64,000 bases of DNA from assembly GCF_009914755.1 (NCBI RefSeq), contig NC_060934.1, one strand, 5' to 3'. Shown here in pieces: positions 27,340 through 64,000 of the stretch. Numbering within the stretch: the stretch's first letter is position 1; every line of letters begins with the position of its first letter. The notes below the pieces were generated by a model that searched no databases, was not told the DNA's origin, and saw only the letters and a program-made list of their open reading frames with translations. Source of the stretch: the human T2T-CHM13v2.0 reference genome, Homo sapiens. The position numbers were made by a program, and so were the translations under genes.

Positions 27340-28030
27340 GCAGTAGAGCATGGTGGTTGAAAGCATAAGTTCATGTCAATTTTACATCAAAAAACAAAAC
27401 TGAAATCTCAAACTCCAGTTCATATGTATGCTGAAGTATTTAGGGAAAGTATACAGACGACTGCAACTTATTTTGAAATGCAACCAGCCTGGCCAACATG
27501 GCAAAACCCCACCTCTACTAAAAATACAAAAATTAGCCAGCATGGTGGCACATACCTGTGATCCCAGCTACTTGGGAGGCTGAGTGAGGAGAATCACTTC
27601 AACCCAGGAGATGGAGGTTGGAGTGAGCCAAGGTCACACAACTGCACTCCAGGCTGGGTGACAGAGTGAAACTCCATCTCAAAAACAAACAAAAAAAAAA
27701 ATATTAATGGGTGATAGGGTATAAAGTGACAAAACAAGCTTTGTGAAATGTTAAGAGATGGGTGCTAAGGTTCTGTCAACTGGGCTCTATATTTGAGTTC
27801 TCATAAGATATTGGGGAAGAAGTATATACCCTGGGACTAGACAGCCTGAAATAAAGTCTTGGCTCTACCACTTCCCAACCATGTAAGCCTAGGCAAATGA
27901 CTCCTCTAGGCTTCTGTGTCCTCGCTTGTAAGAGGACAGTACTTTCCATGTGGCTGTGAGGACCAAATGAGTTCATACATGGCAAATGCATAACAGCACC
28001 CTAAGTGCCAGGTAGGTATTAGCGATGGTC
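27340..28030 (+). mobile_element. MIR split by an old L1 3' fragment (about 27373-27830) that itself carries an Alu
   Basis: MIR head agcatggtggttgaaagc at 27347. MIR body resumes at ggctctaccacttcc..tgtgaggaccaaatgagttcatacatg. L1 motif gctgaagtatttagggaaag lies in between. Confidence 0.65.
27483..27701 (+). mobile_element. 5'-truncated AluS
   Basis: Begins at accagcctggccaacatgg, followed by the linker, right arm and A tail. Confidence 0.9.
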
Positions 28031-28032
28031 AC

Positions 28033-28323
28033 TTTTTCTGGGGGGGAACGGAGTCTGTTGCCCAGGCTTGGAGTGCAGTGGAATGATCTCAGCTCACTGC
28101 AACCTCTGCCTCCCAGATTCAAGTGATTCTCCTGCCTCAGCCTCCTAAGTAGCTGGGATTATAGGTGCACCCCACCACATCTGGCTAAATTTTGTATTTT
28201 TGCTAGAGACGGGGGAGGGGGTTTACCATGTTGGTCGGTCTGGTCTTAAACTCCTGACCTCATGATCTACCCACCTCAGCCTCCCAAAGTGCTGGGATTA
28301 CAGGCATGAGCCACCATACCCTG
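28033..28323 (-). mobile_element. AluS with a degenerate tail and a small deletion
   Basis: acggagtctgttgcccagg (about 6 nt short of consensus)..cctcccaaagtgctgggattacagg. Confidence 0.9.
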
Positions 28324-28749
28324 CTAATAGTCACCTTCTCTCGACAAGCCCCACTCACAGGAGCATCACAGCGAGGCATGGTGCAGTTCCTACCTTACCT
28401 TCCTCAGTCGGAAACAGTGGATTGAGTCTTCCAGACTTCACACCCAGCCCATACTAAGCACTGCTGCTCTTATCTCCTGGGCACCAGGGTGCCTTGGAGT
28501 TCTATGCACAGTGAATAACCCAGGTGATATAAAGGGGTGAGACAATTGTTTCTGGAAGCAAGTGATTGGAGTCAGGGCTCTGCTAGACAGTATCTGAATT
28601 TCTACTAGGAGTCATGGGCTGTCAGGGAAGACCCATGTTGTGTGCTTATAACAATTACACTTGAAACATTGAGGATAGATGGGAAGAGAACAGGAATGAA
28701 AACCCAGAGACCAATTAGGAAGCTTTTAAAGACATGAGCTGCATCTGGG

Positions 28750-59992: not shown

Positions 59993-61149
59993 AGCAGGTA
60001 GATTGGAACCCAGCCATGCCACCTCAGCCTTGTAAGAGCAGGGAAAGCTTCACCTTTAGTCCAGAGGACTCTTCCTAGCAGAGATTTTATCGCTCCCCAC
60101 CACCCCACAACCCATGAGCTTCTAGTACCCCCTAGGAACAATCGAATGGGGCAGCAATCCCTGACTGCTCCAAGGTATTAGGGAGAGATCTCAGCAGTCC
60201 TGTTGCTAGGGTAGCCTGTGACCAAACCTGACCAGCCCTTTTCATTGAACCTGGAGGAAAACCCACTGAGGCTCAGATCCCAAGCTTTATAGACCCAGGC
60301 CCAGCTTTCTAGGACCACAGTCTCTAAAATTGGTTGTCTGGTATTTGAGGTTCTCATGATGGCCATACATTCCTGACATTCCTATAGGAGTCAAGAATAA
60401 TTGAATAATATAATAAAAATAATAAAAGAATAAAACTAAATTTAAAAATTTACTTTTAATGAAATAGATTCATCTAGACCATACCAGTTGGACCCTAGAA
60501 TCCAGAATCTCAAAGCGAATCCACGTATGGCATGAGCAAGAGATGGCCACATACCTATTTATAACTTCACCTGCTGTCAAACAAGTCACCAAGTACTTGA
60601 AGTTGGTTTGATGTCATGTTGCTTGGTGCCTCACCCAGAGCACAGGAAGAGGTGGGATCAGCAGGGAACACCAGATCCTCTGAAGACACTAAGCTGAGGA
60701 GGCCAACTCCATCCAATCTAGAAACCATTCTTCCCTTCACTGACCTGGGAGGTTCCGATCCCAGATTTAAAATCATAGGTAGAAGAACCCTATCCAAAGG
60801 GCTCGGGATGTTTGACACGGACAGCGACAGTATCTGATCATCTTAGCTTGGGTTTCCTGGCATGGAACCTCTACTTCATGAGTGAGCCAAGTGAGCACGA
60901 TCATGGCCCCAGTATTGTCAGCATGCTACACCCAAGACTGGGCCTGTCTTACGCCACAGGTTAGGTGGGAGGCAAGAACACCTCTTGCTGCACTAGCTTC
61001 TGCAACAAGCCTACAGGTGACTAAGCTATGAGTTTGTCTCAGACTTCAAAGGAAGGCCCCCCCACCAACTCCCAAGAGGCCCAAAGTCACAGCCTAGACA
61101 GCTGACAGTCCTTCTGCTATATGAGGCCTAAGTAGTTCATGGTGGGAAA

Positions 61150-62200
61150 CACTGCAGGCATGTTCTGTGACCAGCTGAACAGAGAAAGGCTTAGATGGAA
61201 ACTAGCCCCAATGTGCTGAGAGCTTTGAGGTCACTCCTCTCCCAACAACACTGAACAAGCAATTTCTCTTAAGAGTGTGGTCATAGGACATACTGTCACC
61301 CAGAAATTGAGACAGGCAAATATGTGGACTTTCAACCAAGATTAACTTCTGCAGAAGCTGCTGAAGCCAGTAGCTTACAAAAGACACTTGAATGGTAACT
61401 GAGAGGTTGCTGGAGGTGGGGTTTCTGAACCAGCTTGAGTGAGGAACTCCAGGGACCATAATGGTAGAAGGCTTATAGATTTGTGGGTTCTACCTCCAGG
61501 AGCCCTATCAGGTTCTTATGGTGAGGGTTAGAGGAAAACCCTATTTCAGACCTTCAGGGTTGTAGGCCAGGATGGGTAGTAAACATTTTAAAGTGTGCTG
61601 AGACCATTCTCCATTATGAAGCCATTTTCTGAGGAAGCCGTATTACTGGAGCCTTCTGCCCTGGGAGAAGCATAGTTAGCTTCAACCCCCTCCAGCCTTC
61701 CTGTTTCACAAGGGAAAGAGGGGGTGGGCACAGGTTTAGAAAACTGTCTTTCCTCCCTTACACCCAACCATCTCAACAGGGCTGTAGTGTACCAGCGGAT
61801 TACAAGTGAGCCCCAAGATACAGATCCTACTTAAGGGGTTCCTAGGAAGATTCAGACAGGACAGAGGAAGCTAGTCTCTTGCCCCTACAGCTAACATATT
61901 TAACCCAGCTCATTGAATGCTACAGCATATGCTAAGAGACATGAGAAAAGCATTATAAGACTCAGGACAGATCTTGAAATTATCAGATAAGGAATTTAAG
62001 ACAGGCAACATACAAGGGCAGATGGACAATATAAACAGATGGAAGCTGTAAGAAAGGACTGAAGAAATGCTAGAAGTCAGATTCTTAGACTGAAAATGCT
62101 TTTGATGGGATCAGTAGACTGGACACCTCCAAGGGAAGAATTAGTGAGCTTGAAACTACTGCAGTAGAAGATTCCCAAAGTAAAGGGCACAGAGAAATTA
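61150..62200 (+). mobile_element. Old L1M 5'UTR/ORF1 remnant
   Basis: ttgaaattatcagataaggaatttaaga and gaaaatgcttttgatggga..agtagactggacac..gaagaattagtgagcttgaa are ORF1 motifs. Confidence 0.65.
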
Positions 62201-64000
62201 ATCTGACCAGGGTTTCTGACAGGCAGGGCTTAGCTTCCCAAATTCTAGCAGGTGTTCAGGGTTAGTCTTCCCCCCACTACGGACTTAGCATTCCTGGACC
62301 ACCTGCATATTAGGTTCTTCATCCAAGGCATTGCCAAGTCCTGTCCACTGCCCAGAGGCAGAATTCTAGAGCCTTCTCATTTTCCACACATCACTGTCCC
62401 TCCTGCCATACCTGGCAGCCAGCTTGGTTTCCCTGCCAAGCCCTGGTCTCCCACTTTGGCCAGGGCTGGGCTATTTTCTGCCAGCCTTTTCTTCAGAAGA
62501 AAGAACAGAGGCCTTTGTGAGGCCTCCTACTTAGGCAAGTTCAGAACCGCCACCTAAGCCTTCTCAGCCCAGTGAGGCATCCTCCCCTGAGATGATATCA
62601 GGAAGGCTTAAGTGCCTTCCAAGGCCATTAAATTTACCCCTAAGTATACCTGTTACTCTACCAGGATGCCCTCAAGCCCTGCCCTGGTTCTTGCTGAGCC
62701 TGTCTCCTTGACAGGCTGAATGACGGGCAGCCTCTCTCTAAGCCATGCTCCGGCTGTGATACTAGGGCCAGCTTGGGGCCACTGTGAAGCTTGGGCTGAG
62801 ACAGGCCCAGAGACACCTCACACTATTTTCCAGAGCCTCTCTCAAAGCAAGGGACGGCTAGATGGCCAGGAGTCACCAAGAATGGTGCCATAAGTCTTAG
62901 CTGAGAGACTTTAACCTGGTCCCCTTCCCTAGTAGACCCTTGTAGTTTGCAACAGGAATCTGCCCTTCTTGTCAGTAAGGCAGCATCTCAGATCACCTAT
63001 GATCTGACTTTAAAAGCTAGGAATTCTTAAGCTGGAAGATTCAAGATAAACAAGGTAAGAATTAGGAAGTATCAGTGCCTTTGGAGATTAAAAAAGCCCA
63101 GTGTTTTTAGATAGGAAAGTCTTCCTCCAGGTATTAAAGAGCAAGAAACAGTATGTCAATGGTATGAGGAGGGCTAGTCCTTGACAAAACCTGAGCTAGG
63201 CGACCTTGGGGTAGAACCGTCTTCTATGCCTAGTATAGATACCCCTGGGTAGGGACCAGGGACATTCATGAGTAAAGATAGACCCTGAATTGATCCACAG
63301 ACTTCTGATCTCAGTCACAGATGCCATAGTCTGACCCCTTCCCTAAAAATGCCCAGGAAGAAGCCCATGAGGTCTAGTTGAGCCCATGCTAACCTTTTTT
63401 CCCCTTCCTTGAAAGGCTGGGTCCCACCAGGCATACAGGACTTCTGTTCTACCCTACCCGTTCTCTAGAAAAACCAAGACAAGCAGATAAGTGAGCCATT
63501 TCCCATGGTCTCCAGAGGCACTGGACCCGGGCCTAGACCTTGTATTTCCCTCCATGCCTTCCCAGTGAGGGGGCACCTCCCGGGCCAACAGTCCCATCCT
63601 GGTGCCAGAGCAGCTCTGAGCACAAAGCTGAGCTTCGCAGCAGCCCCAAGCTCACCCTAGTATCACAGCCGAAGCATGGCTCAGGGAGAGGCTAGCCAAC
63701 TTTCATCCTCAAGGAGACAGGCTCAGCAAGAACCAGGGTCAGAGGCTGCCTTCTTCATGCCTGCAGTAACTTCCCATAAGCTACTGCTCTACACCAGAAG
63801 GATCATAGCAGATAGCCTAATTAGTAAAGTCCGACTCAAAAGGAAGAAAGGGTGGGACAAGAGTTTGAAGGGAGTAACCAAGAGTTTTCCAACTAAGACA
63901 CAAACCCAGAGACCCAAGAAGTTCAAACCTCAAACCAAGTAGGTTAATAAAAGATAGGCCATGTCAGCTTGGATAACCACCGAGATAAAAATCCCAGGAA

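What the first reader, a model, noticed from the sequence alone, without database searches (positions are those of the whole stretch)
28000..64000. At least 36 kb of germline hypermutation, possibly the footprint of a heavily transcribed non-coding locus (pachytene piRNA cluster-like)
Seen: every clearly alignable repeat right of about 28 kb is shortened by small deletions, composition shifts to TAG/CTA-rich, substitutions look strand-biased, and there is no coding gene. The ORF track gives 60 ORFs in 14.3-28 kb versus 70 in 28-64 kb, with a maximum of 124 aa; this is partly confounded by GC content. Established: germline transcription produces A>G asymmetry on the non-template strand and TOP1-linked 2-5 bp deletions. 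Also established: pachytene piRNA precursors are long, largely unspliced, A-MYB-driven and fast-diverging. Inference: this is such a unit transcribed right to left from a promoter beyond 64000, and its mutational scar could be used to detect similar loci from sequence alone.
Basis: partly seen in the sequence, partly recalled or inferred. Interest (0 to 1): 0.85.

Follow-up and report, generated by a model that had tools for sequence, protein, structure and literature searches.

The report
Small-deletion-prone 36 kb intergenic block
A sharply bounded 36 kb stretch of gene-free human DNA upstream of UNC5B has an odd base composition and has lost 2-5 base snippets several times faster than its surroundings for tens of millions of years, but nothing here shows that it is a piRNA locus.

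Summary
The core observation holds. Window 27,751-64,000 is a discrete block: TAG+CTA is 37.0/kb against 20.9/kb in the other 228 kb examined. It ends at about 64 kb rather than running on.

Three independent reporters show a block-limited excess of 2-5 nt deletions:
- L1 fragment: 17, against 0-4 in eight other family copies.
- Alus: 8 per 1,340 columns, against 15 per 10,946.
- Blocks aligned to an ancient chrX paralogue: 10-23/kb inside, against 2.7-8.1/kb outside.

Short tandem duplicates are below expectation only in the block and its chrX paralogue.

What does not hold:
- Paralogue substitution divergence is not raised (76.5% identity inside, against 76.6% and 78.9%).
- No strand bias was detected.
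- The ORF paucity follows from composition.

The composition and tandem-duplicate deficit are shared with a ~76%-identical chrX paralogue, so they predate that duplication.

No piRNA gene is annotated within 6 Mb in the refined human catalogue, and RefSeq lists no transcript.

The deletion spectrum is the kind made by TOP1 or transcription-linked mutagenesis. The motif test is inconclusive, and transcription could not be tested here.

The parts
27751..64000. Compositional and deletion-biased block. It is TAG/CTA- and TpA-rich and poor in short tandem duplicates and homopolymers. Most of it has no match elsewhere in the genome (my tally).
   Evidence: Change-point fit. Profile over 264 kb. k-mer contrasts. 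Tandem-duplicate observed/expected 0.91, 0.90, 0.88. Own-genome searches.
20080..38300 (+). Stretch colinear with an ancient paralogue on contig C23 (chrX), 101,430,663-101,449,999, minus strand. Aligned blocks are about 76% identical. The homology is patchy inside the block. A second homologous piece, inverted, lies just outside the window at 64,993-71,989.
30401..35260 (.). Unique TAG-rich segment (37.7/kb). It has no chrX counterpart except an inverted 250 nt piece at 31,754-32,000.
   Evidence: Six-frame read-through found 0 Pfam families.
38301..64000 (.). Part of the block with no counterpart in the 30 kb of chrX examined. TAG+CTA is 34-43/kb.
51490..54030 (+). L1 ORF2-derived fragment, interrupted by an Alu at 52,961-53,290. 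It is the main deletion reporter.
   Evidence: (RVT_1).
28054..28340 (-). Alu at the left edge of the block. It has one 2-5 nt deletion.
41620..41925 (+). Alu with two 2-5 nt deletions.
44687..44968 (+). Old Alu (23% diverged) with two 2-5 nt deletions.
52961..53290 (+). Alu inside the L1 fragment. It has no 2-5 nt deletion.
58968..59245 (-). Old Alu (22% diverged) with three 2-5 nt deletions.

Best explanation
Shown:
- Window 27,751-64,000 is a discrete block of old, gene-free DNA, most of which matched nothing else in the genome.
- On chr10 it has lost 2-5 nt snippets at roughly 3 to 8 times the rate of its flanks and of family copies elsewhere.
- This has lasted at least since its Alus and L1 inserted, which I infer to be tens of millions of years.
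- Paralogue substitution divergence and 1 nt deletions are not raised.
- Its unique DNA carries the matching long-term signature. Short tandem duplicates and A/T runs sit at or below random expectation, and TpA and TAG/CTA are not depleted as they are elsewhere.
- The same signature is present in a ~76%-identical paralogue on chrX. The state therefore already existed when that duplication happened.
- Only the chr10 copy has kept losing snippets.

Inferred:
- The block marks a long-lived unit of germline DNA metabolism.
- The best known mechanism for such a spectrum is TOP1 cleavage at embedded ribonucleotides, which is enhanced by transcription or by high TOP1 activity.
- I therefore read the block as a domain of sustained TOP1-type deletion mutagenesis, possibly an unannotated germline transcription unit.
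- I do not read it as a catalogued pachytene piRNA gene.
- Removing repeat units explains part, not all, of the TAG/TpA enrichment.
For: Deletion excess in three reporter classes:
- L1: 17 against 0-4 in 8 controls. Per substitution 9.8 against 1.63 per 100, OR 6.0. The block copy is 50-95 nt shorter per ~1,450 nt than most of the longest family copies listed. The control copy differs by about 10 nt.
- Alus: 8 per 1,340 against 15 per 10,946 columns. Per-Alu counts inside are 1,2,2,0,3. Outside, 27 Alus have none, 13 have one and 1 has two.
- Paralogue blocks: all 5 inside exceed all 8 outside. The direction holds with four alignment schemes.

Size spectrum in the two L1 pieces: 2 nt 18, 3 nt 9, 4 nt 5, 5 nt 4.

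Scar in the unique DNA:
- Tandem-duplicate observed/expected is 0.91, 0.90, 0.88, against 1.08-1.41 or more in five comparators.
- Every unit class is 20-35% lower.

Boundaries: the deletion excess and the composition share the same boundaries.

Partial link to composition: collapsing tandem duplicates in control DNA raises TAG observed/expected from 0.73 to 0.89-0.95. It also raises TpA and AG/CT and lowers AA/TT.

Weak pointers to minus-strand transcription:
- A exceeds T by +0.073.
- Poly(A) signals are 18 on the + strand and 7 on the - strand, against 14.6 and 11.9 expected, p 0.11.
- The L1 would be antisense to such a transcript.

TOP1 literature: 2-5 bp deletions at short repeats rise with male germ-cell expression (PMC8866115).
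Against: - No transcript is annotated in the window (hub table).
- The Pcbd1-Unc5b desert is described as free of annotated transcripts and ESTs in rat and human (PMC4042238, passage).
- No piRNA gene lies nearby.
- No strand asymmetry of substitutions was found in Alus, L1 or paralogue pairs.
- GC skew is zero.
- The A/T skew is uneven: -0.04 at 54-59 kb. It is also present in the chrX copy (0.155 against 0.134).
- TN*T and microhomology enrichment is marginal in L1 (p 0.06) and absent in paralogue gaps.
- Simulated random, microhomology or TN*T deletions removing up to 30% of a sequence do not produce the TAG enrichment.
- Alus and L1 inside the block have not clearly taken on the composition: Alu TAG+CTA is 23.1 against 18.5/kb, p 0.14.
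- In aligned blocks the chrX copy is more TAG-rich than chr10 (36.7 against 28.2/kb).
- Polarity of paralogue gaps is not established. A gap on the chr10 side could be an insertion on chrX.
- The L1 copy is also 1.5 times more diverged than its controls (0.120 against a mean of 0.080). It may therefore be older or belong to another subfamily.
Confidence: 0.4

Rival explanations
1. The block is a domain of altered replication or repair that has nothing to do with transcription. Examples are a germline replication initiation or termination zone, a recurrent break zone repaired by end joining, or a chromatin domain with its own repair regime. Such a domain would favour loss of a few bases.
For: - The deletion excess comes without any strand asymmetry of substitutions.
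- GC skew is zero.
- There is little dependence on microhomology: 61% against 50% by chance in L1, and 42% against 45% in paralogue gaps.
- No transcript is annotated (hub table).
- Reijns et al. state that ID-TOP1 deletions also rise with TOP1 cleavage activity in non-genic regions (legend passage).
Against: - Among the papers listed, none describes a replication or repair domain of this size with sharp edges and this spectrum lasting tens of millions of years.
- The 36 kb scale and sharp edges are more typical of a transcription unit. This is my inference.
Confidence: 0.3
2. One reading: the block is the body of a pachytene piRNA precursor, or a similar A-MYB-driven long unspliced transcript, read right to left. 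Its composition and deletions are the scar of that transcription.
For: - The block is intergenic and non-coding, most of it matched nothing else in the genome, and it is tens of kb long.
- Its deletions are of the TOP1 class.
- A exceeds T on the + strand.
- Pachytene piRNA promoters often have low or intermediate CG content (abstract of PMC7782496). The lack of a CpG island at the right edge is therefore not an objection.
Against: - It is not among the human piRNA genes of Supplementary Data 4b of PMC7782496. The nearest chr10 entries are at 45.49 and 79.52 Mb in hg19.
- For the other species, that paper screened 20 kb windows at more than 100 piRNAs per million (section 31). The human list was taken from Ozata et al. 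2020, which I could not read.
- No RefSeq lncRNA is annotated.
- The block ends at about 64 kb.
- No substitution asymmetry was found.
- The scar predates a duplication that is itself roughly as old as the older Alus in the region.
Confidence: 0.05
3. Nothing is going on now. The block is simply old unique DNA with an inherited, random-like composition. The deletion excess would then be an artefact of reporter age, subfamily differences, alignment, and insertions on the chrX side.
For: - The composition and tandem-duplicate deficit are equally present in the chrX paralogue, which shows no deletion excess.
- The L1 copy is more diverged than its controls (0.120 against 0.070-0.095).
- Two of the five block Alus are old.
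- The chr10-to-chrX ratio of 2-5 nt gaps, compared inside against outside, has p from 0.007 to 0.23 depending on the aligner.
- I looked at several gap classes after the fact.
Against: - Three unrelated reporter classes agree.
- Normalising by substitutions keeps the excess: L1 OR 6.0, Alu OR 3.5.
- Old Alus outside the block with similar divergence (0.19-0.22; 8 of them) carry 0 or 1 such deletions, against 2 and 3 inside.
- 1 nt deletions are not raised, so age alone does not explain the pattern.
Confidence: 0.12
4. The block descends from a large insertion of unusual origin, such as an ancient viral, organellar or other foreign sequence, or a lost giant element. On this reading its composition was never human-like.
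For: - The edges are sharp and the composition is homogeneous and random-like.
- Most of the block matched nothing elsewhere in the genome.
- The composition is shared by the paralogue.
Against: - 1 of 257 ORFs has a Pfam match, and it lies in the L1 fragment.
- Six-frame read-through of 30,401-35,260 found 0 families.
- There is no three-base periodicity: mean 1.06 against 1.11 outside.
- There is no GC skew of the kind mitochondrial DNA has.
- This reading does not explain the continuing deletions in later Alu and L1 insertions.
- The Pfam test is weak. The L1 positive control gave only one marginal hit.
Confidence: 0.05

Closest known systems
ID4 / ID-TOP1 transcription-associated deletions (Reijns et al. 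2022, PMC8866115; passages and section 14 read)
   Same: The excess is confined to deletions of 2 nt and longer, and 2 nt is the commonest size. 1 nt deletions are not raised. Short tandem repeats are depleted in the block.
   Different: - That signature was defined in genes and scales with expression. This block has no known transcript.
- The TN*T motif and repeat or microhomology context are only marginally enriched.
- Here the effect is seen as a fixed evolutionary scar over 36 kb, not as de novo or somatic mutations.
Human pachytene piRNA genes (Yu et al. 2021, PMC7782496: abstract, section 31 and Supplementary Data 4b read; Ozata et al. 2020 not held)
   Same: Both are intergenic, non-coding and tens of kb long, and most of this block matched nothing else in the genome. 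Low-CG promoters are allowed in that family.
   Different: The block is not in the annotated set. No small-RNA, A-MYB or transcript evidence is available here. The block is bounded on both sides, with no identified promoter.
Transcription-coupled strand asymmetry of mammalian genes (Green et al. 2003 and Touchon et al. 2003; recalled, not read here)
   Same: T exceeds A on the minus strand by about 7%.
   Different: - G does not exceed C (skew -0.002).
- No A>G against T>C asymmetry was found in reporters.
- The skew is uneven along the block.
- It is already present in the chrX paralogue.
Ancient (sub-90% identity) segmental duplications
   Same: There is colinear non-repeat homology of about 18 kb plus an inverted 7 kb piece between chr10 and chrX. 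Aligned blocks are about 76-79% identical. The Alus are not shared.
   Different: The duplication serves only as the clock and outgroup here. It does not explain the deletion bias.
Pldi / AK158810 locus (mouse testis lncRNA born in the Pcbd1-Unc5b desert; Dai et al. 2013, PMC4042238, passages and supplement passages read; Heinen et al. 2009 recalled)
   Same: It lies in the same gene desert, which shows that testis transcription can arise there.
   Different: By my recalled build offsets, its human homologues (hg18 chr10:72,489,341-72,497,322) map about 45-53 kb left of the window. That is roughly 75 kb from the block. The transcript is mouse-specific and young.

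Membership tests
Pachytene piRNA gene | Abundant 24-32 nt, 1U-biased small RNAs in adult testis, such that the locus is listed in the curated annotation | tested here: not met
   Supplementary Data 4b of PMC7782496 (hg19) lists chr10 genes only at 29.08, 45.49, 79.52, 85.32, 88.96, 91.55-91.60 and 105.25-105.6 Mb. 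I place the window at about 72.87-72.94 Mb from recalled coordinates. Small-RNA reads themselves were not available.
Pachytene piRNA gene | A-MYB-bound promoter and a long unspliced transcript or long first exon | not testable with these tools
   No ChIP or RNA data were available. There is no CpG island within 30 kb to the right of the block, but low-CG promoters are usual in this family.
Pachytene piRNA gene | Intergenic, non-coding, repeat-poor unique sequence tens of kb long | tested here: met
   1 of 257 ORFs has a Pfam match, and that match is in the L1 fragment. By my tally, about 13% of the block matches other genomic places.
ID-TOP1 (ID4) deletion footprint | Excess of 2-5 bp deletions relative to other indels and to substitutions | tested here: met
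   L1: 17 against 0-4, OR 6.0 per substitution. Alus: OR 4.4 per column. Paralogue blocks: 10.1-23.3 against 2.7-8.1/kb.
ID-TOP1 (ID4) deletion footprint | Deletions sit at short tandem repeats or microhomology with a TN*T motif | tested here: inconclusive
   L1: repeat context 19% against 11%, microhomology 61% against 50%, TN*T 58% against 42% (p 0.06). Paralogue gaps: TN*T 34% against 33%. Alignments at 76-79% identity blur the context.
ID-TOP1 (ID4) deletion footprint | Rate follows germline transcription or TOP1 cleavage activity | not testable with these tools
   No expression or TOP1-seq data were available.
Transcription-coupled mutational asymmetry | A>G exceeds T>C on the non-template strand, with T>A and G>C compositional skews on that strand | tested here: not met
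   A>G 13 against T>C 14 in block Alus. L1 rates 0.076 against 0.064 per site, p 0.6. Paralogue pairs are symmetric. TA skew is 7% but GC skew is -0.002. Power is limited.
Ancient segmental duplication | Colinear homology of non-repeat DNA between two loci, beyond the length of any transposon, with later repeats not shared | tested here: met
   Window 20,080-38,300 matches C23:101,430,663-101,449,999. Window positions 64,993-71,989 match an adjacent chrX piece in inverted orientation. The Alus differ between the copies.

The most novel reading that the evidence does not exclude
The block is the fossil, and perhaps still living, body of an unannotated germline transcription unit or TOP1-active domain that has persisted since before the chr10-chrX duplication. 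I infer that age at roughly 60-100 million years. Its deletion scar would then be readable from sequence alone, through three features: short tandem duplicates at or below random expectation, TAG/TpA not depleted, and inserted repeats riddled with 2-5 nt deletions. The same three-part signature could be used to map present and extinct germline-transcribed non-coding loci genome-wide, former piRNA clusters included.
Probability: 0.25. Interest if true: 0.8.

Novelty: new variant of a known kind. Interest (0 to 1): 0.55.

Why it matters
Regional differences in small-indel mutation are usually tied to genes, repeats or megabase-scale features. Here a sharply bounded 36 kb piece of a gene desert shows a several-fold, deletion-specific bias.

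- The bias is visible in three independent internal clocks and in the make-up of the unique DNA.
- An ancient paralogue shows how old the state is.

If the cause is germline transcription or TOP1 activity, the block offers a sequence-only marker for such units. It would also be a natural test bed for how TOP1-type deletions reshape DNA over evolutionary time.

If the cause is something else, it is an unexplained mutational regime worth mapping.

Either way the claim can be tested at once with public population, primate and germ-cell data.

Tried and rejected
- ORF paucity as a signal: explained by composition.
- Decayed tandem array: no periodicity apart from one 31 nt repeat, and no internal repeats beyond Alu and L1.
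- Known RNA families: 0 Rfam matches.
- Hidden coding or viral remnant:
  - 1 of 257 ORFs has a Pfam match, in the L1 fragment.
  - Six-frame read-through of 30,401-35,260 found 0 families.
  - No three-base periodicity.
- AT-rich DNA driven GC-wards as the source of TAG richness: simulation leaves TAG observed/expected at 0.73-0.78.
- Random, microhomology or TN*T deletions as the source of TAG richness: at most 0.73 after removing 30% of the sequence.
- A current regional substitution regime making TAG: Alus and L1 inside the block are not clearly TAG-enriched, and the Alu substitution spectra are alike.
- Strand bias of the deletion motif: none.
- Net length of old repeats against family copies: judged too noisy. 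One repeat outside the block, at about 23 kb, is also short.
- CpG island at the right edge: none, but this is uninformative for this family.
- Ozata et al. 2020 is not held.
- Testing real piRNA clusters for the same scar was not possible.

Full report
WHAT WAS CLAIMED

- a shift to TAG/CTA-rich composition;
- repeats shortened by small deletions;
- strand-biased substitutions;
- no coding gene.

THE COMPOSITION SHIFT IS REAL, DISCRETE, AND ENDS AT THE WINDOW EDGE

- TAG+CTA is 25.5/kb (1-14,300), 19.4/kb (14,301-28,000) and 37.1/kb (28,001-64,000). It is symmetric between strands: TAG 672, CTA 662.
- The window's own assembly is held, so I fetched 100 kb on each side.
- In the resulting 264 kb the enrichment is confined to one block.
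- A two-change-point fit places the block at 27,751-64,000, with 37.0 against 20.9/kb and a log-likelihood ratio of 154.
- None of 155 non-overlapping 36 kb windows exceeds 26.4/kb.
- Relative to base frequencies, TAG/CTA occurs at 1.11 times expectation in the block. It occurs at 0.55-0.78 in the 22 wholly outside 10 kb bins, and at 0.69-0.79 in four arbitrary 10 kb loci on other chromosomes.
- Given dinucleotides, TAG is not special: 0.98 of the first-order expectation.
- The shift reflects TpA at 0.84 of expectation and AG/CT at 1.37, together with fewer homopolymers and dinucleotide repeats.
- The ORF numbers of the finding reproduce exactly: 60 and 70, maximum 124 aa. First- and second-order Markov sequences give 63+-6 and 73+-7 for 28-64 kb, so the ORF paucity adds nothing beyond composition.

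WHAT THE BLOCK CONSISTS OF

- There are no tandem arrays except a perfect 31 nt repeat at 46,876-46,959, no Rfam family and no hidden periodicity.
- Internal repeats are Alus and one L1 fragment.
- Searches of Alu-free pieces against the whole assembly find only a few short old repeats: about 29,153-29,568, 48,745-49,160, 55,625-55,730 and 62,000-62,200, plus an inverted pair at 62,682-63,738.
- By my tally, about 13% of the block matches other places. That search is less sensitive than a repeat library.
- Of 257 stop-to-stop ORFs of 50 aa or more, 1 has a Pfam match. It is RVT_1, E 0.004, in the L1 fragment.
- Six-frame read-through of 30,401-35,260 gives 0 families.
- Three-base periodicity is absent.

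AN ANCIENT PARALOGUE ON chrX GIVES AN INTERNAL CLOCK

- Window 28,400-38,238 matches C23:101,430,663-101,444,454 colinearly.
- I fetched 30 kb of that region. BLAST and nhmmer then show two homologous stretches:
  - window 20,080-38,300 is colinear with one stretch;
  - positions 64,993-71,989, just beyond the window, match the adjacent chrX stretch in inverted orientation.
- Alus are not shared between the copies.
- Window 30.4-35.3 kb and 38.3-65 kb have no counterpart in the 30 kb of chrX fetched, apart from two small pieces.
- I aligned 13 blocks: 3 left of the block, 5 inside and 5 to the right. I left out short or inverted pieces at 27,367-27,482, 31,754-32,025, 35,263-35,454 and 66,218-66,599.
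- Identity is 76.6% (4,592 columns) on the left, 76.5% (4,371) inside and 78.9% (4,512) on the right.
- Substitution divergence is therefore not raised in the part of the block that can be aligned (p 0.135).
- Complementary substitution classes are balanced inside the block: AG 135 against TC 130, GA 195 against CT 191.

THE SMALL-DELETION CLAIM HOLDS

I first thought it did not, because total gap events are alike inside and outside. Splitting by size changed that.

- Paralogue gaps.
  - On the chr10 side, 2-5 nt gaps are 67 in 4.37 kb inside and 53 in 9.10 kb outside (15.3 against 5.8/kb, p 1.4e-7).
  - The chrX side has 36 and 61.
  - All 5 inside blocks (10.1-23.3/kb) exceed all 8 outside blocks (2.7-8.1/kb), p 0.0016. 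The chrX side does not differ, p 0.35.
  - With four alignment schemes the direction holds. The test of the chr10-to-chrX ratio ranges from p 0.007 to 0.23.
- Alus, measured against a majority consensus of the local copies.
  - 5 of the 46 pieces of 120 nt or more lie in the block.
  - They carry 8 deletions of 2-5 nt in 1,340 columns, against 15 in 10,946 for the other 41 (OR 4.4, p 0.002; per mismatch OR 3.5, p 0.008).
  - Counts per Alu inside are 1,2,2,0,3. Outside, 27 have none, 13 have one and 1 has two.
  - An earlier run used 37 of 43 hits, those covering 240 nt or more. It pointed the same way but weakly.
- L1, the strongest case.
  - In a nine-copy alignment the block copy has 17 lineage-specific 2-5 nt deletions. 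The others have 2,2,1,3,0,2,4,2.
  - The nine copies are the block copy at 51,492-52,961, the copy at 7,717-9,250, and seven copies taken from among the top rows of the lists.
  - 1 nt deletions are 4 against 1-7.
  - Poisson p is 6e-11. Per 100 substitutions the figures are 9.8 against 1.63 (OR 6.0, p 1.7e-6).
  - The block copy is 50-95 nt shorter per ~1,450 nt than most of the longest family copies listed. The control copy differs by about 10 nt.
  - The second L1 piece shows 14-16 against 1 in a pairwise comparison.

THE UNIQUE DNA CARRIES THE MATCHING SCAR

- Short tandem duplicates of unit 2, 3 and 4 nt are at 0.91, 0.90 and 0.88 of first-order expectation in the block. They are at 1.08-1.41, 1.09-1.33 and 1.5-3.2 in five comparators.
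- Every unit class is 20-35% lower than in controls, and C/G runs are the least affected.

WHAT ARGUES AGAINST A PURELY chr10-LOCAL SCAR

- The chrX paralogue of the block has almost the same dinucleotide signature and TAG ratio (1.06 against 1.13).
- It has the same tandem-duplicate deficit (0.97 and 0.85).
- It has the same A-over-T skew in the homologous stretch (0.155 against 0.134).
- Yet it shows no deletion excess.
- In aligned columns chrX is in fact the more TAG-rich copy (36.7 against 28.2/kb).
- The state therefore predates the duplication.
- From per-lineage divergence similar to that of the older Alus, I infer that the duplication is some 60-100 million years old.
- Only chr10 has gone on losing snippets.
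- Alus and L1 inside the block have not clearly taken on the composition (Alu 23.1 against 18.5/kb, p 0.14; L1 38.8 and 29.6 against 34.6 and 27.0).

CAN THE DELETIONS EXPLAIN THE COMPOSITION?

Only in part.
- Random, microhomology-guided or TN*T-guided deletions removing up to 30% of control DNA leave the TAG ratio at 0.73 or below.
- Driving AT-rich DNA GC-wards also fails.
- Collapsing tandem duplicates does move control DNA in the right direction. The TAG ratio goes from 0.73 to 0.89-0.95, TpA and AG/CT rise, and AA/TT falls. It also lowers CC/GG and raises CA/TG, which the block does not show.

MECHANISM

- The size class and spectrum (2 nt 18, 3 nt 9, 4 nt 5, 5 nt 4 in the two L1 pieces) are those of ID4/ID-TOP1.
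- Reijns et al. 2022 tie that signature to TOP1 cleavage at embedded ribonucleotides and to expression in male germ cells. They also note that 2-5 bp deletions are the commonest de novo indel class, so the class by itself is not diagnostic.
- The defining context is only marginally met. In L1, TN*T is 21 of 36 against 42% by chance (p 0.06), repeat context is 19% against 11%, and microhomology is 61% against 50%.
- In paralogue gaps there is no enrichment.
- No strand asymmetry of substitutions appears: Alus A>G 13 against T>C 14, and L1 0.076 against 0.064 per site, p 0.6.
- GC skew is -0.002, while A exceeds T by 0.073. The A/T skew is uneven along the block.
- Poly(A) signals are fewer on the minus strand (7 against 18; expected 11.9 and 14.6; p 0.11).
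- These pointers are compatible with minus-strand transcription but do not show it.

THE piRNA READING

- The refined human annotation of Yu et al. 2021 lists chr10 piRNA genes only at 29.08, 45.49, 79.52, 85.32, 88.96, 91.55-91.60 and 105.25-105.6 Mb in hg19.
- The window is at about 72.87-72.94 Mb by my recalled UNC5B coordinates.
- For the other species, that paper's screen asked for more than 100 piRNAs per million per 20 kb. The human list was taken from Ozata et al. 2020, so a weak or extinct locus could be missed.
- Ozata et al. 2020 could not be read.
- RefSeq shows no transcript in the window.
- A paper on the mouse Pldi locus describes this desert as free of annotated transcripts and ESTs in rat and human.
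- There is no CpG island within 30 kb right of the block. This counts for little, because these promoters are often low in CG.
- A search for papers linking pachytene piRNA loci with indel rates listed none that held the term 'pachytene piRNA'.

VERDICT

- There is a sharply bounded 36 kb block with an unusual composition and a several-fold excess of 2-5 nt deletions.
- It is not general hypermutation, it is not detectably strand-biased, and it does not extend beyond about 64 kb.
- The transcription or TOP1 explanation is the best available, at about 0.4. A non-transcriptional regional regime is a serious rival.
- Identity as a present-day pachytene piRNA gene is unlikely, at about 0.05.

Noticed in passing
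window 20080-38300, positions 64993-71989 just right of the window (L003), and L023-L025 (C23:101420001-101450000): An uncatalogued-looking ancient duplication between chr10q22 and chrX. About 18 kb is colinear and about 7 kb is inverted. Aligned blocks are 76-79% identical and the Alus are not shared. The chrX copy lacks the 38-65 kb part. chr10 is GC-richer than chrX at diverged sites throughout (588 against 298, 517 against 337 and 524 against 284).
   Followed up: partly
window 46876-46959: A perfect 31 nt tandem repeat of 2.7 copies with 100% matches. It is a young duplication inside a block otherwise poor in tandem duplicates.
   Followed up: no
about 45-53 kb left of the window (L017-L018): Human homologues of the conserved elements of the mouse testis lncRNA locus Pldi/AK158810 (hg18 chr10:72,489,341-72,497,322) map here by my recalled build offsets. 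A small CpG-rich spot lies at -52,199 to -51,899. This is not the block.
   Followed up: partly
window 11750-13810 and 15745-16420: A multi-copy element of about 2.06 kb, 70-78% identical to dozens of copies, and a repeat of about 680 nt at 80-83% identity, lie left of the block. I only observed them and did not classify them.
   Followed up: no
window 62682-62791 and 63631-63738: An inverted pair of 110 nt arms, 85% identical and about 840 nt apart, lies near the right edge of the block. It may be the ends of an old DNA transposon.
   Followed up: no
window 3669-4577 and 4850-5706: A local direct duplication of about 0.9 kb at about 67-79% identity, spaced about 1.18 kb apart.
   Followed up: no
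window 22500-25083: A chr10-only insert of 2.6 kb lies between two blocks that are contiguous on chrX. It holds an old repeat of about 340 nt at about 23,016-23,360 and two long chance ORFs of 213 and 227 aa.
   Followed up: partly
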